A DNA stretch of 64,000 nt from an uncultured Clostridia bacterium (GTDB lineage Bacteria > Bacillota > Clostridia > Christensenellales > UBA3700), in contig CANSGN010000006.1 of NCBI GenBank assembly GCA_947646415.1, positions 2,431-66,430 of the forward strand, read 5' to 3'. The notes beneath the pieces are model-generated. The model searched no databases. It was not told where the DNA came from and saw only the letters and a program-made list of their open reading frames with translations. The number at the start of each line of letters is the position of its first letter. The stretch's first letter is position 1. The translations under genes were made by a program, and so were the position numbers. This document shows, in pieces, positions 1,038-58,786 of the stretch.

Positions 1038-3698
1038 TTAAAAGAATAAGTCCATTGCAAATAATTTATCCACAACATTTCTTACTATTTCCGCATCTGC
1101 ACTTGTCACATTGCCTTTATTTATTACCATACTTGCCAGCTTCTTTTCCACACTTAAATTTTCATATAACGCGCTATCACTTGCTATTTGTCTTAAATAC
1201 GATACATCGCTTGCGCTTATCCTACCATCTCCGTTTACGTCGCCTAGTACGGATAAAGTTATTCTTTCAGTTTCTCCGTCTTTGCTGTACTCTATATACC
1301 AACCTGTTCCTACTGCTAGCTCTTTTCCATTATTCAACAACTCCGCATTTACGCTTGCATTTCCTTTGTCGTAGATTATTGCGCCTTTGCTGTTGTAGAT
1401 TTGTATTTGTGTTTTGTCATATACCAAGTTGCTTATAAACGTGTTTACGCTTGTATTTGGGCTTATATTTCCCATATAGTAGTTTGCTTTTCCTTCTACT
1501 ACATTTACATTGCTGTCATTATCCCCGTGTATCAAGCCTTTGTCTTTATAACTTACTCTCTTATCTCCCTCTAGGATTAAGTAATCGTATTTAGACTCTG
1601 CTGCTGGTCTTATTACATTTGCCTCGCTTATTGTAAGTTTTCCTCCATTTAAATAATTGACTGTTACATTGTAGTTACTGTTACCGCTAAACACTTTGCT
1701 TACGTCAAATGGTTTTATGCTTATTGCATACTCTCCTACATTTACGGCACTATCCGTTGTCACTCCGTCCTTTGTAAACTGTGGCACTATTTTGCTGTAG
1801 TCTATATTAAATACATTAGTTAATGGTTTTCCATTATCTTGACCTAACAAATTTGCAGACAAACTATACCAATCAATTAATTGAACTTCTTTTCCGTTAT
1901 AAGCGCTATTACTGCTTTTTGTACTTGCATTTACAGTAAGATTAGCAGGTGTTATTTTATAAGTTGTGCTTTTTGTCAATGGATTAATTTTGTAATTACC
2001 ATTGTTCAAGCTTCTTGCTTCGGCATAATATCCTGTACCGACATTTGTTTCGCTCCCAAAAACATTTACATTGCAACTATCTTCCCCAATCAACTGTCCT
2101 GCTTTTATTTTAGCTTTAGGGCTTTGCGACACACCGTTGTAAACCAAATTTGTTTCCCATTCCAAATCAATCTGCTTTGGCAAGACAATAAATGTAAATG
2201 CTGTGTTTTTATATGCTCTTGTAGAAACAAAGGCATAAACACCTGCATCTGTTACTTGATAACTTGGTTGAGCGGGATTTGAAAATTTAAATATATTACC
2301 CTCACTTGCAGAGATAGTGAACGGCTCGCCTGTGTATGTAACCGTCATTACTCTATTTGTAGTAGTTTTATCGTTGTATTTCCAAGTTAATGTTTTTAAA
2401 CTGCTTGTAGCATTTACCAACTCTGCCTCATCGCCGTTTTTTACTACCGAATAACTTTCATTATCCGAAAAGAAAAAACTTGCGGGACTTAAAGTACTGT
2501 TATGCACGGAAAAATCTGCGGTAAAAATTCTTGGTGACTCTAAGCTTATACCAACATTTGTAATGTGCTTGGCAATTAAATTAGCTGCAGAGATATAACT
2601 TGTTGCGACTTGCAAGGTATTTGTTGAGCATAAATACAGATTATTTTCCTTATTATCACAAAGATTTCCGTAAATTTGAGTACCTAAACCTATTTTAATA
2701 TTACATCCCGAACTTATATAAGCACCTGCTCCCGCAGCATTGACAGTTGATGTGCTTGAAGCAAGAGTTTCTGCCGAATTATTGGTAATAATCACGTTTC
2801 TCAAATCAACAGTCGAAAGTGAGTATGAAAAAATCCCCGCACCTAAAACAGATGAATTGTTTGCAATTACTCCGCCTCTCACTACCACAGTACTTTCAAT
2901 GCCTGAGCATATACCTGCACCATGATTTGTACTTGTATTACCAAAAATAAGTCCATCATAAAAGTTTATATAACCATTTCTCATAGCAGTTAAGCCTGCT
3001 GCATCCACGCCTTTATTATTGCAAATAATCCCCGAATAAAAGTTCATAACTCCGCCATCGGAAACCCTTATTCCTGCAGCAAAATATCCATCCACGCTAT
3101 TATTCCCGCCTTTAATTTTACCAAAAGGCAAATTGTCAACATTTGTTTGAGTCAATCTATTTTCTGCAAGTAGTTTATATACCTCGTTGGAATCATAAGT
3201 AGAGTCCATAATATTTAAAAATCCCTCTACTTTCATACAATACCCGTAATCAGCACCTGTGGTATCAAACAAATTTCTATCAATATTGTGGCCATTTAAA
3301 TCAATAGTAATATTTGTGCCGGCAATTACACGAATTTTTCCTTCATCAAAGCCGACACCTGTACCAAACTCAGTAACATAAACATTATCTGACTTTGCAG
3401 CAACCCAATCCGATTCCATAGTAATTATTACTGACCTTTTATTGTTGTATGAATCTACAACAGCCGTATTCCAAGTATCTGCCATTTGACTGCAATCGCC
3501 TTTTAATACGTAATCGGAATTTGTTGCCATCAGTGAGCTTTGCTCATTAACTTCAAGCACTTCTGCAGTCCCGTTGTGGTTTATCATGTTGTCATTGCAA
3601 CTTTCATTGTAAATTATCGTAGCACAGCTTACCGCTAATAGAAGGGAAATTACTAGTACAAAAAATACTATCCCAACTTTTTTAATAATCTTTGCCAT
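1038..3698 (-). CDS. secreted/surface adhesin-like protein: N-terminal signal/anchor helix, parallel beta-helix (PMP/pectin-lyase-like) repeats, MBG-type repeat region, C-terminal dockerin-type module
   Basis: 886-aa ORF. Hydrophobic N-terminus MAKIIKKVGIVFFVLVISLLLAV. Recurrent G-x-G-I turns (HGAGICSG, LGAGIFSY, AAGAGAYISSG). YNGVSQSP..NVGTGYY..NYKI..YKITPANLTV pattern. C-terminal LGDVNGDGRISASDVSYLRQIAS...NKGNVTSADAEIVRNVVDKL (two dockerin Ca-loop/helix segments). GGAGG RBS 7 nt before ATG 3698. Confidence 0.85.
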   Translation of the reverse strand: MAKIIKKVGIVFFVLVISLLLAVSCATIIYNESCNDNMINHNGTAEVLEVNEQSSLMATNSDYVLKGDCSQMADTWNTAVVDSYNNKRSVIITMESDWVAAKSDNVYVTEFGTGVGFDEGKIRVIAGTNITIDLNGHNIDRNLFDTTGADYGYCMKVEGFLNIMDSTYDSNEVYKLLAENRLTQTNVDNLPFGKIKGGNNSVDGYFAAGIRVSDGGVMNFYSGIICNNKGVDAAGLTAMRNGYINFYDGLIFGNTSTNHGAGICSGIESTVVVRGGVIANNSSVLGAGIFSYSLSTVDLRNVIITNNSAETLASSTSTVNAAGAGAYISSGCNIKIGLGTQIYGNLCDNKENNLYLCSTNTLQVATSYISAANLIAKHITNVGISLESPRIFTADFSVHNSTLSPASFFFSDNESYSVVKNGDEAELVNATSSLKTLTWKYNDKTTTNRVMTVTYTGEPFTISASEGNIFKFSNPAQPSYQVTDAGVYAFVSTRAYKNTAFTFIVLPKQIDLEWETNLVYNGVSQSPKAKIKAGQLIGEDSCNVNVFGSETNVGTGYYAEARSLNNGNYKINPLTKSTTYKITPANLTVNASTKSSNSAYNGKEVQLIDWYSLSANLLGQDNGKPLTNVFNIDYSKIVPQFTKDGVTTDSAVNVGEYAISIKPFDVSKVFSGNSNYNVTVNYLNGGKLTISEANVIRPAAESKYDYLILEGDKRVSYKDKGLIHGDNDSNVNVVEGKANYYMGNISPNTSVNTFISNLVYDKTQIQIYNSKGAIIYDKGNASVNAELLNNGKELAVGTGWYIEYSKDGETERITLSVLGDVNGDGRISASDVSYLRQIASDSALYENLSVEKKLASMVINKGNVTSADAEIVRNVVDKLFAMDLFF

Positions 3699-3720
3699 AA
3701 TAAAACCTCCGTTTTTACCT

Positions 3721-3747
3721 TACATAGATTAAGTATATCTATGTACA
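3721..3747. repeat. lox-like core site L1 (TACATAGAT|TAAGTAT|ATCTATGTA+CA) in the 5' UTR region of the 1038-3698 gene
   Basis: 9-bp inverted arms around a 7-bp asymmetric spacer. 3730-3747 is the exact reverse complement of 3869-3886. Confidence 0.7.
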
Positions 3748-3826
3748 AAATCGTGGATTTTTTAAGTTTGAATATATAATTTTTGTATGCTTAAAGTAAA
3801 GAGTTTACAAAACCTTTATTATAACG

Positions 3827-3856
3827 TTGACATTATCTTACATTTTAGTTTAAAAT
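3827..3856 (+). promoter_or_regulatory. sigma-A type promoter facing away from the dockerin gene (TTGACA-18-TAAAAT)
   Basis: TTGACA 3827-3832, TAAAAT 3851-3856. Lies entirely between sites L1 and R1. Identical copy at 6648-6677. Confidence 0.6.
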
Positions 3857-3868
3857 ATACATATAATA

Positions 3869-3895
3869 TGTACATAGATATACTTATTCCATGTA
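3869..3895. repeat. lox-like core site R1 (TG+TACATAGAT|ATACTTA|TTCCATGTA)
   Basis: Same arm sequence as L1. The 7-bp spacer ATACTTA is the reverse complement of the L1 spacer TAAGTAT. 25/27 match to the reverse complement of L1. Confidence 0.7.
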
Positions 3896-4006
3896 CCCAA
3901 ACTTTACATTAATGGCAAATTTTTAACCCAGATAGTCCCGATTTTTGATAGGATTATTGCAGTGAACGCCACTTTTTGCCTACTTTAAACTTTACACAAA
4001 AAGTAA

Positions 4007-4050
4007 CACCCCGAAACTAAAATGTTTCGGGGTGTATTTTTTATTTTTTT
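4007..4050. terminator. intrinsic terminator (T-rich on both sides, so bidirectional)
   Basis: 11-bp GC-rich stem CACCCCGAAAC/GTTTCGGGGTG. Plus strand is followed by T-run; minus strand is followed by TACTTTTTGTG. Confidence 0.7.
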
Positions 4051-4280: not shown

Positions 4281-6518
4281 TTAAAAGAATAAGTTTATTG
4301 TAAGCAATTTATCAATTACATTCCTTACAATTTCCGCATCTGCTGTTGTTACGTTGCCTTTATTTACAACTGCGCATGCAAGCTTTTTTTCTATATCCAA
4401 ACTCTCGTATAATGCTTTATCGCTTGCTATTTGTCTTAAGTAGGAGACATCACTTGCACTTATCCTGCCGTCGCCGTTTACATCGCCTAGTACGGATAAA
4501 TAAACTGTTTCAACTTTGTTTGTGATAGCGTTGTTATGTTTGATATACCAGCCTGTACAAATCGGCATGTTTATTCCGTCGTCTAATAATGCTTGGTCAA
4601 TATTCATTGCACTTCCGCTATCATATAATATTGTATCCTTATTATTAAATAGTCCCATATTATTTTTATCAATTCCCAAACTTGCCAAGTGACTTACAAA
4701 ATCAATTATTGAAGTGTTTGGATTAATATTACCTATTACATAAACCGGCTGACCGTTTACTATATTTAAGTTAGCATCATTATAACCATGGAATTTATCA
4801 TTATCGCTATAATTCTTACGGCAACCATCCTCTAAGTATATAAAGTCATATATTTTGCCTTGGTCTATTTGATAGTCAAACATTACCTCGTCATTTTTCA
4901 ATTTCGCTACATACTTGCTATTTTTATTATAAAACAAAGTCTTAGGGTCATTGTTTTCGTTTCCGTAAATTGTATATCCTAAAGTAAATGGTCTAAAAAT
5001 TTCGTTATCCTCGTTCATTTCTAAACACATACCTTTGCCACTTTCGCCTAATGACAACTCACCATTAACGTAAATACGTTTATTGGATGCCAAATATATA
5101 TCGCTTACACCCGCACTTACTGTGTTACCGGTTATATCGTTACTTCCTTGCAAATAAAACTTAGCATTGTCCTCTGCACCTATTCCACCGCCATGTGCCA
5201 AACCATAGTTATTCCTTACTTTAACATTGCTTACATATAGCGTACTATTAAACAGTGCTTGTATACCTGCCCCGCCAAATGTAGTACCTCTTTCTCCCAT
5301 TGCTTTATTGTCTTCTATCGTACAATTATCCACATAAGTTATACTTTGTGCTGTAACATAAATTCCTCCGCAATGTCTTTTAGCAATATTACCGCTTACA
5401 TTTGTATCTTTGATTTTTACAAAGGAATCTTCTCCGCAATAAATACCTGCACCATAATCTGCCTGGTTATTTTGGATAGTGGAGTTGTTAATTTTTATAT
5501 TGGCATTACCTCTTATACAAATTCCGCCGTCCATACTATCTGAAATATTATTTGAAACAGTTATATTTTCAAAAGTGTTTACACCTCTTGTACATATACC
5601 AGCACCTTCGGTACTTGCCTTATTGTATATTAGTTCACAATTAACTACATTACAACTACTTTTATCGCTAATACCTATACCCGCACCCCATGACGCAGTA
5701 TTACCTGCAAATAGTGCATTGGATATACTATCATCAGTTTCTGTATATATAGCGCCACCATTATCAGTTACTTTATTAGCTGCAAAAATACCATCAACTA
5801 CATTAAACCTTGTTTTGTTTCCAGCAAAAATCGCTGCACCATCTCTTGCGCGGTTATTATATATCATACCGCCACAAATTTTCAAAAACCCTCTTGATAT
5901 CGTAGAGCCATTTGAGCCATCGCTGTATGAAACATTAAAGGCTCCGCCATGACCTGTTGTATTTGCACCGGTAATCTTTCCGCAAGGTACTTGCTTTAAT
6001 TCATTTAATATTTGCGTTTCGGTTTTTCCGCTTGCATTTGCATAAATTGACTTAACTTGCGATTTTATGCTTTCTTTATTTTTATCATATTCGCTGTCCA
6101 TAATGTAAAGCATACCTTTTACGGAAAACAAACTGCTTGTTAAAGTTGATGCGGCAGTAAGTGTATGACCTTTCAAATCTATAATTATGGTAGTGCCATA
6201 CATAGAAGTTATAGATTCTTTTACCGTCCAATCTTGTCCCAATTCCAATTTAACAATTAGACGTTGATAAGCAGACATTTGCGATGCTTGCGATAGTAGC
6301 CTTTTCATAGTCTCGTCATCGCCTTGCCAATCTAAAGTGTTATCTGCCGTAACATCGGGAACTTCCGAAGTAGTCATCACTTCATCATTTTGATTGCTTA
6401 AATTTACGCGGTCTTCAATTTGAGTATTGTTTGCAATTAATACGCTGCCCATTATAACCAGAAAGGAAATTACTAACGCAAAAAATATTTTTCCCACGTA
6501 TCGTGTAAACTTTGCCAT
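4281..6518 (-). CDS. secreted/surface protein, paralog of 1038-3698: signal/anchor helix, parallel beta-helix repeats, C-terminal dockerin-type module
   Basis: Start moved to MAKFTRYVGKIFFALVISFLV (ATG 6518, GGAGG 7 nt upstream) rather than the ORF-track 6575. Many GGAIY/GAGI/GGGI turns (NGGAIYTE, WGAGIGIS, GAGICTR, YGAGIYCG, HCGGIYVT, GGAGIQAL, HGGGIGAE). C-terminal LGDVNGDGRISASDVSYLRQIASD...NKGNVTTADAEIVRNVIDKL nearly identical to paralog 1. Confidence 0.85.
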   Translation of the reverse strand: MAKFTRYVGKIFFALVISFLVIMGSVLIANNTQIEDRVNLSNQNDEVMTTSEVPDVTADNTLDWQGDDETMKRLLSQASQMSAYQRLIVKLELGQDWTVKESITSMYGTTIIIDLKGHTLTAASTLTSSLFSVKGMLYIMDSEYDKNKESIKSQVKSIYANASGKTETQILNELKQVPCGKITGANTTGHGGAFNVSYSDGSNGSTISRGFLKICGGMIYNNRARDGAAIFAGNKTRFNVVDGIFAANKVTDNGGAIYTETDDSISNALFAGNTASWGAGIGISDKSSCNVVNCELIYNKASTEGAGICTRGVNTFENITVSNNISDSMDGGICIRGNANIKINNSTIQNNQADYGAGIYCGEDSFVKIKDTNVSGNIAKRHCGGIYVTAQSITYVDNCTIEDNKAMGERGTTFGGAGIQALFNSTLYVSNVKVRNNYGLAHGGGIGAEDNAKFYLQGSNDITGNTVSAGVSDIYLASNKRIYVNGELSLGESGKGMCLEMNEDNEIFRPFTLGYTIYGNENNDPKTLFYNKNSKYVAKLKNDEVMFDYQIDQGKIYDFIYLEDGCRKNYSDNDKFHGYNDANLNIVNGQPVYVIGNINPNTSIIDFVSHLASLGIDKNNMGLFNNKDTILYDSGSAMNIDQALLDDGINMPICTGWYIKHNNAITNKVETVYLSVLGDVNGDGRISASDVSYLRQIASDKALYESLDIEKKLACAVVNKGNVTTADAEIVRNVIDKLLTINLFF

Positions 6519-6541: not shown

Positions 6542-6568
6542 TACATAGAATAAGTATATCTATGTACA
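6542..6568. repeat. lox-like core site L2 (TACATAGAA|TAAGTAT|ATCTATGTA+CA)
   Basis: Copy of L1 at an offset of 2821 nt, with one arm substitution. Confidence 0.7.
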
Positions 6569-6647
6569 AAATCACGGTTTTTTTGAGTTTGAATATATAA
6601 TTTTTGTATGCTTAAAGTAAAGAGTTTACAAAACCTTTATTATAACG

Positions 6648-6677
6648 TTGACATTATCTTACATTTTAGTTTAAAAT
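6648..6677 (+). promoter_or_regulatory. second copy of the outward-facing TTGACA-18-TAAAAT promoter
   Basis: Identical to 3827-3856. Located between L2 and R2. Confidence 0.6.
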
Positions 6678-6689
6678 ATACATATAATA

Positions 6690-6716
6690 TGTACATAGAT
6701 ATACTTATTCCATGTA
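6690..6716. repeat. lox-like core site R2 (TG+TACATAGAT|ATACTTA|TTCCATGTA)
   Basis: Identical to R1. Spacer inverted relative to L2. Confidence 0.7.
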
Positions 6717-6826
6717 CCCAAACTTTACATTAAAGGCAAATTTTTACCCCTAATAGTCCCGATTTTTGATAGGATTATTGCAGTGAACAGCACTTTTGCC
6801 TACTTTAAACTTTACACAAAAAGTAA

Positions 6827-6862
6827 CACCCCGAAACTAAAATGTTTGGGGGTGTATTTTTT
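6827..6862. terminator. second copy of the GC-stem terminator
   Basis: CACCCCGAAAC-TAAAAT-GTTTGGGGGTG (one stem mismatch versus copy 1) followed by TATTTTTTATG. Confidence 0.6.
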
Positions 6863-6991
6863 ATGTTCATATAATTGATTTTATAAAAATTTCAGACAAA
6901 TTTTGTCTTGTTTTAAAAAAATATTATTAGCCTTATGTATAGTTACATAAAAAATAAAGCTGTAAATAATAATATATAATTTGTTTATAAA

Positions 6992-11019: not shown

Positions 11020-11032
11020 AAATAACTATTAT

Positions 11033-11115
11033 TTTGCTCCCTACGCTGGTATTAACCATCAGGTTCAAAGGGTTAGGCAAATGCCCTCTCAACTTAAAAA
11101 AGTACCCCTGCTTTA
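11033..11115 (-). promoter_or_regulatory. TPP (THI-box) riboswitch aptamer
   Basis: Minus strand CAGGGGTAC..GTTGAGAGG..CTAACCCTTTGAACCTGATGGTTAATACCAGCGTAGGGAGC matches the THI-box core (GGGG..CUGAGA-like..ACCCUUUGAACCUGAU..UAAUACCAGCGUAGGGA). Confidence 0.9.
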
Positions 11116-11117
11116 AT

Positions 11118-11146
11118 AGTATACAACATTTTTATTAAATTGTAAA
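11118..11146 (-). promoter_or_regulatory. promoter of the TPP-riboswitch/thiD operon (TTTACA-17-TATACT)
   Basis: Hexamers at 11146-11141 and 11123-11118, directly upstream of the aptamer. Confidence 0.6.
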
Positions 11147-58690: not shown

Positions 58691-58786
58691 TGCTGAGTAG
58701 AAATACTGCGTTAAGTGCCATAGAACGGGATGTTGACTATGGACGAAAGAGAATAATCTCTGCGGTTGTATTTCACATCCGAGGCA
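58691..58786 (+). promoter_or_regulatory. THF (tetrahydrofolate, folT-motif) riboswitch
   Basis: CUGAGUAG..CUGCGUUAAGUGCCAUAGAACGGGAUGUUGACUAUGGACGAAAG..CUGCGGUUG..CACAUCCGAGGCA aligns block for block with the classical THF aptamer (GAGUAG, GCGUUAAGUG, GGGAUG, ACGAAG, GCGG, CAUCCG). Upstream of an ECF S-component gene. Confidence 0.9.

What the first reader, a model, noticed from the sequence alone, without database searches (positions are those of the whole stretch)
3721..3895. Lox-like inverted core sites bracket a consensus promoter: candidate invertible (phase-variable) switch, currently pointing away from the dockerin surface-protein gene
Seen directly:
- Site L1 (3721-3745) is TACATAGAT|TAAGTAT|ATCTATGTA. 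Site R1 (3871-3895) is TACATAGAT|ATACTTA|TTCCATGTA.
- Each site has 9-bp inverted arms around a 7-bp asymmetric spacer.
- The R1 spacer is the exact reverse complement of the L1 spacer. The exact inverted match extends to 18 nt (3730-3747 versus 3869-3886), and 25 of 27 overall.
- The ~125 bp between the sites carries a strong TTGACA-18-TAAAAT promoter on the plus strand, facing away from the gene. Its predicted TSS lies just inside R1.
- Only weak minus-strand hexamers (TTTACT-16-TATATA) face the gene.

Established knowledge: arm-spacer-arm sites with an asymmetric spacer are the architecture of tyrosine-recombinase core sites such as loxP and FRT. Oppositely oriented spacers give inversion. 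Inverted repeats flanking a promoter upstream of surface-protein genes define invertons, for example Bacteroides capsule promoters and the C. difficile cwpV and flgB switches.

Inference: flipping 3746-3870 would aim the consensus promoter through L1 into the RBS at 3708 and give a ~55-nt 5' UTR. The assembled state would therefore be OFF or low. No recombinase is encoded in this window, so it would have to act in trans.
Basis: partly seen in the sequence, partly recalled or inferred. Interest (0 to 1): 0.8.

Follow-up and report, generated by a model that had tools for sequence, protein, structure and literature searches.

The report
Invertible promoter switch for dockerin-protein genes
The inverted sites at 3721-3895 are one copy of a many-copy family of flip-flop promoter switches, sitting here in the "off" direction, that an uncultured mouse-gut Clostridia lineage places in front of each of two dozen or more dockerin-bearing secreted-protein genes; the mechanism is well known, but this family has apparently not been described.

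Summary

- **The sites are real.** Sites 3721-3745 and 3871-3895 are 9-7-9 sites with reverse-complementary spacers. They bracket a TTGACA-18-TAAAAT promoter that points away from the dockerin gene.
- **The element is multi-copy.** A second near-identical copy lies at 6542-6716 before the next dockerin gene. At least 45 distinct copies occur in related mouse-gut MAGs, always with 150/151-bp site spacing.
- **Inversion is seen directly.** In one family member, the 125-bp inner segment is the exact reverse complement in one assembly (L046) of that in six others (e.g. L056), with identical flanks. An ortholog of the window's second gene (99% nt identity, L088) carries the predicted ON junction.
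- **Site conservation fits a recombinase.** The arms are conserved. The spacer differs between lineages (five classes) but always matches its partner, which is the tyrosine-recombinase crossover signature.
- **Not established.** No recombinase lies in the window. A candidate tyrosine recombinase sits about 2 kb from a unit in three species. No flipped allele of unit 1 itself was seen, and there are no expression data.

Verdict: a real inverton, assembled OFF, and a new member of a known kind. The function of the conserved 110-bp block beyond R1 is unexplained.

The parts
1038..3698 (-). Controlled gene 1: an 886-aa secreted protein of the MAK[IC]IKR family, with an N-terminal hydrophobic signal/anchor and a C-terminal dockerin.
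   Evidence: ORF. Pfam Dockerin_1 at residues 818-874, E 7e-5. Paralogs in related genomes share the N-terminus and the dockerin end.
3706..3710 (-). Ribosome-binding site (GGAGG on the minus strand), 7 nt upstream of the ATG at 3698.
   Evidence: Read directly. The motif GGAGGTTTTATTATG is conserved in most units.
3721..3745 (.). Gene-side core site L1: TACATAGAT | TAAGTAT | ATCTATGTA (outer arm, 7-bp asymmetric spacer, inner arm).
   Evidence: The inner arm is invariant in 45/45 distinct units and the outer arm varies.
3746..3870 (.). Invertible segment of 125 bp, class A, assembled with its promoter pointing away from gene 1 (OFF).
   Evidence: The same segment class lies in the opposite orientation, between unchanged flanks, in L046 versus L056 (exact reverse complement). 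An ON junction is seen in L088. Site start-to-start spacing is fixed at 150/151 bp in all units.
3827..3856 (+). Promoter P1: -35 TTGACA (3827-3832), 18-nt spacer, -10 TAAAAT (3851-3856). Predicted TSS is ~3863 on the + strand; after inversion it would be ~3753 on the - strand, giving a ~55-nt 5' UTR.
   Evidence: 11/12 matches. The -35 and -10 columns are invariant or nearly so across 41 OFF-orientation units.
3871..3895 (.). Distal core site R1: TACATAGAT | ATACTTA | TTCCATGTA. Its spacer is the exact reverse complement of the L1 spacer.
3896..4005 (.). Conserved upstream block of about 110 bp with three near-invariant islands: TTTACAT at 3902-3908, CCCGATTTTTGATAGGATTATTGCA at 3938-3962, and AAACTTTACACAAA at 3987-4000. 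Its function is unknown. Candidates are accessory sites for the recombination synapse or a regulator/second-promoter region.
   Evidence: 97% identical between the two window copies while the coding sequences diverge. The islands are conserved across species. No conserved RNA structure is predicted in it.
4006..4045 (.). Terminator hairpin (4006-4035) with T-runs on both strands. It insulates the cassette from upstream read-through and stops the OFF-direction transcript of about 180 nt.
   Evidence: 12-bp stem, 7 GC pairs, found on both strands. The hairpin is kept through compensatory changes in 7 pairs across units.
4281..6518 (-). Controlled gene 2: a 745-aa paralog with Beta_helix and a C-terminal dockerin.
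   Evidence: The ortholog in L088 (21/2238 nt different) carries the ON junction.
6542..6716 (.). Second copy of the switch: L site 6542-6566, 125-bp segment 6567-6691 with P1 at 6648-6677 (+), and R site 6692-6716. It is also in the OFF orientation.
6717..6865 (.). Conserved block and terminator hairpin (6826-6855) of the second cassette.

Best explanation
The element is a promoter inverton. Two 25-bp recombinase core sites (9-bp arms around a 7-bp asymmetric crossover spacer, in inverted orientation) flank a 125-bp segment that carries a near-consensus sigma-70-type promoter.

A site-specific recombinase encoded elsewhere in the genome, most likely a tyrosine recombinase, exchanges strands within the spacers and flips the segment.

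- In the orientation assembled here (OFF), the promoter fires away from the dockerin gene. It runs across a conserved 110-bp block into a terminator hairpin that belongs to the cassette.
- In the flipped orientation (ON), it would transcribe through L1 and the GGAGG ribosome-binding site into the gene, with a ~55-nt leader.

The same cassette (terminator, block, switch, RBS and signal-peptide start) precedes the next gene in the window and at least two dozen paralogous dockerin-protein genes per genome in related mouse-gut Clostridia (labelled Christensenellaceae/Christensenella in the MAG records). The system therefore most likely gives each cell a variable subset of a large surface or secreted protein repertoire.

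Shown: the anatomy, the multi-copy family, both orientations in natural assemblies, and spacer covariation. Inferred: promoter activity, the ON/OFF expression consequence, the recombinase class and identity, and the switching of the 3721-3895 copy itself.
For: 1. Anatomy at the stated coordinates, with a chance expectation of 0.04 against 4 sites observed.
2. A second copy is 97% identical from the RBS to the terminator, while the adjacent coding sequences diverge.
3. A genome-contig scan returned 48 loci. Nearly all are in three mouse-gut MAGs, and paired sites are always 150 bp apart. There are 45 distinct complete units.
4. Direct inversion polymorphism. The switch before the DUF6273+dockerin gene is ON in L046. 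It is OFF in L056-L059, L064 and L078 of the same species. The 125-bp segment is an exact reverse complement, and the 150-bp upstream and 35-bp downstream flanks are identical. The ortholog is ON in 4 of 4 assemblies of another species (L037, L074-L076) and OFF in a third (L020, L065-L069).
5. L088 is the ortholog of the window's gene 2 (21 of 2238 nt differ, same downstream sequence). It begins with the -10-proximal end of the segment joined to the gene-side site. That is 1 mismatch to the predicted ON junction and 9 to the OFF junction.
6. Site conservation pattern. Inner arms are 45/45 invariant and outer arms are variable. The spacer falls into five classes (TAAGTAT, TAAATAT, TAAGCAT, TACATAT, TATATATA), and the two sites of every complete unit are exact reverse complements.
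7. The -35 and -10 elements are invariant or nearly so across units.
8. A 304-310-aa tyrosine recombinase (Phage_integrase + SAM_3) lies about 2 kb from a unit, in a conserved neighbourhood, in three species.
9. The low ON fraction is not unusual. cwpV is ON in about 5% of cells (PMC2784873).
Against: - No flipped allele was found for the 3721-3895 copy itself. Other assemblies of that gene break at the site (L049).
- Orientation is very skewed. Roughly 50 or more OFF observations stand against 6 ON, and only one ON is in the MAK family. That one rests on 18 nt at the end of a Logan contig, and it could also come from recombination between two different units.
- An ON-junction-specific scan of JGI metagenomes found only a SNP false positive.
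- The recombinase is not in the window, and the candidate is supported only by linkage.
- The strongly conserved block beyond R1 is not explained by a simple inverton.
- A weak gene-facing promoter-like site inside the segment (3800-3771) and an extended -10-like TGCAATAAT in the block (3982-3953) leave room for some orientation-independent transcription.
- There are no transcript or read-level data.
Confidence: 0.85

Rival explanations
1. Fixed divergent promoter with palindromic operators. In this reading the two 9-7-9 palindromes bind a dimeric regulator and loop the DNA. The strong promoter permanently drives a ~180-nt RNA (3863 to ~4042), and the dockerin gene uses a separate fixed promoter. 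The window copies would never invert, even if a few relatives do.
For: - All MAK-family units seen in full are in the same orientation.
- The promoter-to-terminator unit looks like a self-contained small transcription unit.
- The block downstream of the promoter has near-invariant islands.
- Weak gene-facing promoter-like hexamers exist.
Against: - Exact inversion is seen between unchanged flanks in a family member, and an ON junction is seen at the ortholog of window gene 2.
- An operator model does not predict a spacer that changes between lineages yet stays reverse-complementary within each unit.
- There is no Rfam match, and no conserved RNA structure is predicted in the block.
- In the MGBC121002-type units the T-run follows the hairpin only in the gene-sense direction, so the outward RNA is not consistently terminated.
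Confidence: 0.07
2. The element is a real inverton but is catalysed by a serine invertase (Hin/Gin/Mpi type) rather than a tyrosine recombinase. The 25-bp sites would then be read as imperfect palindromes with a central crossover.
For: - Multi-locus promoter inversion by one serine invertase acting in trans is known in Bacteroides (own knowledge).
- The recombinase has not been identified.
- The sites are near-palindromes of about the length of hix-type sites.
Against: - The sites have odd length, with a 7-bp spacer centred on a single base. This fits a 6-8-bp staggered tyrosine-type overlap better than a 2-bp serine-type core (inference from established knowledge).
- Concerted changes occur at spacer positions 3, 4 and 5 in different lineages, which is wider than a 2-bp core.
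- No serine-recombinase motif was found in about 500 kb of held sequence.
- A tyrosine recombinase is syntenic with units in three species.
Confidence: 0.08
3. A dispersed repeat that carries a promoter. Orientation differences would arise from occasional RecA-dependent recombination between the 27-bp inverted repeats, or from independent insertions, and not from a programmed switch.
For: - Dozens of near-identical copies per genome.
- Contigs of many assemblies break at the repeats.
Against: - Every copy sits in the same register immediately upstream of a paralogous gene start, so it is not scattered.
- The sites are the most conserved part of the cassette across species, while the inner segment has diverged to about 74% identity between classes.
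- Spacing is fixed at 150/151 bp.
- There is no match in the phage or plasmid collections.
- 27 bp is short for efficient homologous recombination (established knowledge).
Confidence: 0.04

Closest known systems
Mycoplasma penetrans mpl (P35 lipoprotein) promoter inversions
   Same: A large paralogous family of surface-protein genes (38 mpl genes). Each gene has its own short invertible promoter, giving independent ON/OFF switching per gene (PMC10502178, citing Horino et al. 2003). This is the best functional analogy.
   Different: The lineage is unrelated and the proteins are lipoproteins, not dockerin proteins. The inverted repeats are shorter and without the 9-7-9 lox-like layout (from memory; the primary paper is not held). 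There is no equivalent of the conserved block plus terminator cassette. No sequence homology was tested or expected.
Bacteroides fragilis capsular-polysaccharide and other gut Bacteroidales promoter invertons
   Same: Many invertible promoters in one genome share a repeat consensus and are served by a recombinase in trans. They control surface structures of a gut commensal. Invertons are very widespread in gut bacteria (PMC11602134, PMC11892184).
   Different: The B. fragilis PS promoters use a serine invertase, Mpi (own knowledge). The phylum, the repeats and the targets (operons, not single genes) all differ.
E. coli fimS switch (FimB/FimE)
   Same: A tyrosine-recombinase inversion of a short promoter-bearing segment flanked by 9-bp inverted repeats. 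Orientation bias is set by the recombinase and by accessory-protein sites in and next to the switch (own knowledge). This is a possible model for the conserved block.
   Different: It is a single locus with a 314-bp segment, and its recombinases are encoded next to the switch. Here there are two dozen or more loci, a 125-bp segment, and a recombinase in trans.
Clostridioides difficile RecV-dependent switches (cwpV, flgB and others)
   Same: Clostridia. One tyrosine recombinase acts in trans on several short invertible elements upstream of surface-protein genes, and most cells are OFF (about 5% ON for cwpV) (PMC2784873, PMC5903667, PMC7446863).
   Different: [quoted passage not shown] The flgB switch acts through Rho (PMC7446863). 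Here the invertible segment carries the promoter. The repeats are not similar.
Cre/loxP and FLP/FRT core sites
   Same: Two inverted recombinase-binding arms surround a short asymmetric spacer that sets directionality and must match between partner sites. Spacer variants behave as separate classes.
   Different: Those sites are 13-8-13 rather than 9(11)-7-9, and they serve phage or plasmid maintenance rather than gene regulation. The resemblance is architectural only. The nearest solved relative of the candidate recombinase is the Tn1549 integrase, not Cre.

Membership tests
Promoter inverton (invertible promoter, site-specific) | Two inverted repeats flank a short DNA segment upstream of a gene. 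| tested here: met
   27-nt repeat, 25/27 matched, 121 nt apart, with the near site 23 nt from the ATG.
Promoter inverton (invertible promoter, site-specific) | A promoter lies inside the segment and reads out through one repeat. | tested here: met
   TTGACA-18-TAAAAT at 3827-3856. The hexamers are invariant or nearly so across 41 units. This is a consensus match only; activity was not measured.
Promoter inverton (invertible promoter, site-specific) | Both orientations of the segment occur in natural populations, with breakpoints in the repeats. | tested here: met
   Met for the family: L046 versus L056 is an exact reverse complement with identical flanks. An ON junction is seen at the ortholog of window gene 2. 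A flipped allele was not observed for the 3721-3895 copy itself.
Promoter inverton (invertible promoter, site-specific) | A site-specific recombinase that catalyses the inversion. | tested here: inconclusive
   None in the window. A candidate tyrosine recombinase lies about 2 kb from a unit in three species. Catalysis cannot be tested here.
Promoter inverton (invertible promoter, site-specific) | Gene expression depends on the orientation. | not testable with these tools
   This needs RNA-seq, 5' RACE or reporter fusions.
Tyrosine-recombinase core site (lox/FRT/dif-like) | Two inverted binding arms around a 6-8-bp spacer. | tested here: met
   9-bp arms (11 bp on the inner side) around a 7-bp spacer. 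A minority class has an 8-bp spacer.
Tyrosine-recombinase core site (lox/FRT/dif-like) | The spacer is identical between partner sites, and its asymmetry sets the outcome (inverted spacers give inversion). | tested here: met
   There are five spacer classes across lineages. In every complete unit the two spacers are exact reverse complements. One class (TATATATA) is symmetric, which is an exception to the asymmetry.
Tyrosine-recombinase core site (lox/FRT/dif-like) | Arms are conserved as protein-recognition elements independently of the spacer. | tested here: met
   Inner arms are 45/45 invariant, and the arms are kept in species whose spacers differ.
Tyrosine-recombinase core site (lox/FRT/dif-like) | Cleavage at the spacer borders by a catalytic tyrosine through a Holliday junction. 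| not testable with these tools
   A biochemical assay is needed.
Serine-invertase system (Hin/Gin/Mpi type) | A serine recombinase gene and sites with a 2-bp central crossover. | tested here: not met
   No serine-recombinase motif was found in the held sequence (a regex screen with limited sensitivity). The sites have odd length, and concerted changes span 3 central positions. The rest of the genome was not available.
C. difficile cwpV-type switch (inversion in the leader, no promoter inside) | The promoter lies upstream of the invertible region, and OFF is caused by termination in the leader. | tested here: not met
   The strongest promoter is inside the segment. Only a weak extended -10-like site lies upstream in the block, and its -7 position is not conserved.
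Known RNA family (small RNA or riboswitch) in the promoter-to-terminator stretch | A match to an Rfam covariance model, or a conserved structure with covariation. | tested here: not met
   No match reached even half of any family's gathering score, and there is none at gathering thresholds. RNAalifold finds only the site hairpin and the terminator.

The most novel reading that the evidence does not exclude
The cassette may be more than a simple switch, in two ways.

- Geometry. The invariant 150/151-bp spacing and the conserved 110-bp block could form an accessory architecture that restricts recombination to the two sites of one unit. That would be needed because two dozen or more units share identical sites.
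- Cross-talk. The roughly 25 near-identical ~180-nt RNAs made by OFF-state promoters could act in trans to limit how many dockerin genes are ON at once.

Together these would give a counted, combinatorial, phase-variable cellulosome-like surface. The separate spacer classes and the two promoter classes (A/B) would define independently switching sub-regulons, or would allow promoter-cassette exchange between loci.
Probability: 0.12. Interest if true: 0.8.

Novelty: new member of a known kind. Interest (0 to 1): 0.58.

Why it matters
If the switches work as inferred, a small-genome, uncultured mouse-gut Clostridia lineage puts most of a large family of dockerin-bearing beta-helix proteins under individual ON/OFF control. 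There are at least 24 genes in one MAG.

That would be one of the largest inverton regulons per genome outside Bacteroidales and Mycoplasma. It would also be the first link between phase variation and dockerin/cohesin-type surface display. No paper in the searched library combines dockerin with invertible elements, or Christensenellaceae with invertons.

Practical consequences:
- The family gives a clean natural set of lox-like sites, with conserved arms and several spacer classes, that could be exploited as orthogonal recombination targets.
- It explains why assemblies of these genomes break at these positions.
- Expression of these genes cannot be inferred from a consensus assembly.

Tried and rejected
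- **Known RNA in the promoter-to-terminator stretch.** Rfam at a permissive E-value and at gathering thresholds gave nothing relevant.
- **Functional structured small RNA from the OFF promoter.** RNAalifold on 21 diverse units found only the invariant site hairpin and a covarying terminator. It found nothing in the conserved block.
- **A second, gene-facing promoter in the block (extended -10 TGCAATAAT).** Not adopted. The -7 T is replaced by A in several units and no -35 is conserved.
- **ON-junction-specific scan of JGI metagenomes.** The single hit (L053) was a SNP false positive in the OFF orientation. The collection evidently holds very few contigs of this lineage, so the result says little about ON frequency.
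- **Other assemblies of the window's own genes (L049-L052).** They show the same OFF orientation or break exactly at the sites.
- **Recombinase in the window.** A motif screen, tblastn with the candidate, and Pfam on 45 of the ORFs of at least 150 aa found none.
- **Phage or plasmid origin of the cassette.** No blastn match.
- **Candidate recombinase as XerC/XerD.** Rejected; the scores are far below the NCBIfam cut-offs.
- **Literature.** No paper combines Christensenell* with inverton, or dockerin with invertible. The M. penetrans primary paper is not held.
- **The bare 9-mer TACATAGAT.** Not enriched in the window. Only the full site is.

Full report

- L1 (3721-3745) reads TACATAGAT|TAAGTAT|ATCTATGTA, and R1 (3871-3895) reads TACATAGAT|ATACTTA|TTCCATGTA.
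- The repeat finder reports one inverted repeat, 3721-3747 versus 3869-3895, 27 nt and 93% complementary. It also reports the perfect 9-bp internal palindrome of L1.
- The promoter scan places TTGACA-18-TAAAAT at 3827-3856 on the + strand (11 of 12 matches). The only gene-facing match inside the segment is a weak one.
- The full site pattern with up to 3 mismatches occurs four times in the window against 0.04 expected.
- The two further matches are a second copy of the same pair at 6542-6566 and 6692-6716, in front of the next gene.
- Both downstream genes (1038-3698 and 4281-6518, minus strand) end in a dockerin.

**The unit is larger than the finding.** The two upstream regions align almost without mismatch from the ribosome-binding site to a terminator hairpin (4006-4035 and 6826-6855), over about 345 bp. 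The adjacent coding sequences diverge quickly. Each cassette, read in the direction of its gene, has this order:

1. terminator hairpin
2. conserved block of about 110 bp
3. distal site
4. 125-bp segment with the promoter
5. gene-side site
6. GGAGG ribosome-binding site
7. ATG

**A multi-copy family.** A scan of one genome per species with the site pattern returned 48 loci. Almost all are in three mouse-gut MAGs, labelled uncultured Christensenellaceae MGBC162486 and Christensenella sp. MGBC121002 and MGBC100798. Paired sites are always exactly 150 bp apart.

- I extracted 45 distinct complete units. MGBC162486 alone has at least 24.
- Almost every unit lies 21-24 nt upstream of a gene whose product starts MAK[IC]IKRxGIxFF. 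These products are 580-1050 aa long and end in one or two dockerin modules.
- A second gene type (M[EK]NLK..., DUF6273 plus dockerin) has the same switch.
- Many contigs of fragmented assemblies end exactly in a site.

**Orientation test.** In all complete MAK-family units and all half-units at contig ends, the promoter points away from the gene. The M[EK]NLK gene behaves differently.

- In MGBC162486 (L020) the promoter points away from the gene. In MGBC121002 (L046) and MGBC100798 (L037) it points at the gene, with the conserved block still upstream and the RBS still downstream.
- I retrieved independent assemblies of this gene through its homologs. In the MGBC121002-like species, six assemblies (L056-L059, L064, L078) carry the OFF orientation.
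- The 125-bp segment of L046 is the exact reverse complement of that of L056. The 150 bp upstream and the 35 bp downstream are identical.
- The MGBC100798-like species is ON in 4 of 4 assemblies (L037, L074-L076).
- The window-like species is OFF in all assemblies (L065-L073).

This is inversion of exactly the segment between the sites, within a species.

**The window's own family.** The last look-up returned a Logan contig (L088, run ERR14056448) with the ortholog of window gene 2.

- The coding sequence differs at 21 of 2238 nt, and the downstream sequence is the same.
- Its 5' end reads TAATATACATATAATATG | TACATAGATATATTTATTCTATGTA | AGGTAAAACGGAGG...ATG.
- The 18 nt before the site have 1 mismatch to the junction predicted by flipping 6567-6691, and 9 mismatches to the OFF junction.

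So a MAK-family switch orthologous to the window's second copy exists in the ON state. Only 18 nt of the segment are visible, so local inversion cannot be told apart from exchange with another unit. Both would be recombination at these sites.

**Site architecture.**

- Across the 45 distinct units the inner arms are invariant (45/45). The outer arms occur in six and three variants. The spacer is TAAGTAT in 44 units.
- The exception (L054) has TAAATAT in one site and ATATTTA in the other.
- Units in more distant species have TAAGCAT/ATGCTTA (L080-L082) and TACATAT/ATATGTA (L084-L087), with unchanged arms.
- A minority class within MGBC162486 has an 8-nt TATATATA spacer in both sites (L024, L042).
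- In every complete unit the two spacers are exact reverse complements.

Arms conserved for recognition, together with a spacer that is free to change only in concert, is what established knowledge of Cre/lox, FLP/FRT and Xer/dif predicts for a tyrosine-recombinase crossover region. Three features favour a tyrosine over a serine recombinase, though they do not prove it:

- the odd site length
- the 7-bp overlap
- concerted changes at three central spacer positions

**Recombinase.**

- The window is chromosomal core, with thiamine and leucine operons, metG, ribosomal-protein operons and fucose genes, at about 35% GC. No recombinase was found in it by motif screen, tblastn or Pfam.
- In the held loci, one tyrosine recombinase was found (L003 6476-7405; Phage_integrase plus SAM_3).
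- Its homologs (89% and 77% identity) lie in a conserved neighbourhood: PI-PLC-X, recombinase, metallophosphatase, then a cassette with a family gene. A unit lies about 2 kb away in three species.
- It is not XerC/XerD. Its nearest solved relative is the Tn1549 integrase core.
- It also belongs to a very large Clostridia family (7338 hits below 1e-30).

It is a lead, not an identification.

**The rest of the cassette.**

- The terminator hairpin is maintained by compensatory changes in seven pairs.
- Its T-run is conserved in the gene-sense direction in all units. A T-run in the outward direction is present in the window-type units.
- My inference is that the hairpin insulates the switch from upstream read-through. 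In the window it also stops the OFF-direction transcript (about 180 nt, 3863 to ~4042) before that transcript becomes antisense to the neighbouring gene.
- The block between R1 and the terminator has three near-invariant islands, no predicted RNA structure and no Rfam match.

The block's function is unexplained. Accessory sites that define the synapse are the reading I favour. This would fit the invariant 150/151-bp spacing and the need to avoid recombination between the many identical sites. It is untested.

**Comparison with known systems.**

- Invertons are a well-known and very widespread kind (PMC11602134, PMC11892184, PMC5903667).
- Functionally the closest case is the M. penetrans mpl family, where each of 38 surface-protein genes has its own invertible promoter (PMC10502178).
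The cwpV inversion region contains no promoter (PMC2784873), and flgB acts through Rho (PMC7446863).
- The cwpV figure of about 5% ON cells shows that an all-OFF consensus is not evidence against switching (PMC2784873).
- I found no paper linking dockerin proteins or Christensenellaceae to invertons. The cassette has no match in the phage or plasmid collections.

It is a new member of a known kind. Three things make it notable:

- the size of the regulon
- its target, a dockerin-protein repertoire
- the clean comparative evidence for arm-spacer-arm sites

Still to be shown:

- switching of the 3721-3895 copy itself
- promoter activity
- the recombinase
- the role of the conserved block

Noticed in passing
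window 6542-6716 (cassette to 6865): A second, near-identical copy of the whole switch cassette lies upstream of the next dockerin gene (4281-6518). It is 97% identical to the first from RBS to terminator, while the coding sequences diverge.
   Followed up: yes
window 3896-4005; direct repeat AAACTTTACA at 3899-3908 and 3987-3996: The conserved block between R1 and the terminator has three near-invariant islands (TTTACAT, CCCGATTTTTGATAGGATTATTGCA, AAACTTTACACAAA) that are kept across species. No RNA structure is predicted and no convincing promoter is present. The TTTACA-like motif also recurs twice inside the invertible segment. Function unknown.
   Followed up: partly
L002-L048 (MGBC162486 units), e.g. 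L026 22-196 versus 3400-3574: The invertible segments of one genome fall into two discrete classes: A (93-97% identical to the window's) and B (about 74%). The flanking blocks are 89-94% identical regardless of class. This could mean two regulatory classes, or promoter-cassette exchange between units.
   Followed up: partly
L042 6262-6438 and L024 3890-4066: These units in the same genome have an 8-nt symmetric spacer (TATATATA) in both sites. The sites are then essentially palindromic and lack the asymmetry that dictates inversion over excision.
   Followed up: no
L003 4343-4517 and L008 5647-5821: An 'orphan' switch unit with its block and terminator sits about 155 nt upstream of an mgsA/rarA-type AAA+ ATPase gene in two species, with no family gene attached. 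In L003 it lies 2 kb from the candidate recombinase.
   Followed up: partly
L003 6476-7405; L080 6001-6915; L084 5668-6600: A tyrosine recombinase of 304-310 aa has a conserved neighbourhood (PI-PLC-X, recombinase, metallophosphatase, then a switch cassette) in three species. It is the candidate invertase.
   Followed up: partly
L049, L050-L052 (3' ends), L001, L004, L009, L022, L024, L029, L043-L045: Contigs from many independent assemblies start or stop exactly inside the 25-bp sites. These switches are a systematic cause of assembly breaks in this lineage. L060 has a scaffold gap and foreign sequence at the gene-side site.
   Followed up: partly
L034 (CBFGCD010000030.1): A 1.9-kb contig binned in a Candidatus Gastranaerophilaceae MAG carries the same block and site. 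This is probably a mis-binned contig.
   Followed up: no
L088 19-43, L054 700-874: The spacer variant TAAATAT/ATATTTA occurs in a strain whose gene is 99% identical to the window's gene 2. Spacer classes can therefore differ between close strains.
   Followed up: partly
window 11021-11119 (-) and 58691-58786 (+): A TPP riboswitch lies within the thiamine biosynthesis cluster, and a THF riboswitch lies ahead of an ECF-transporter S component. No tRNA genes are present in the window.
   Followed up: no
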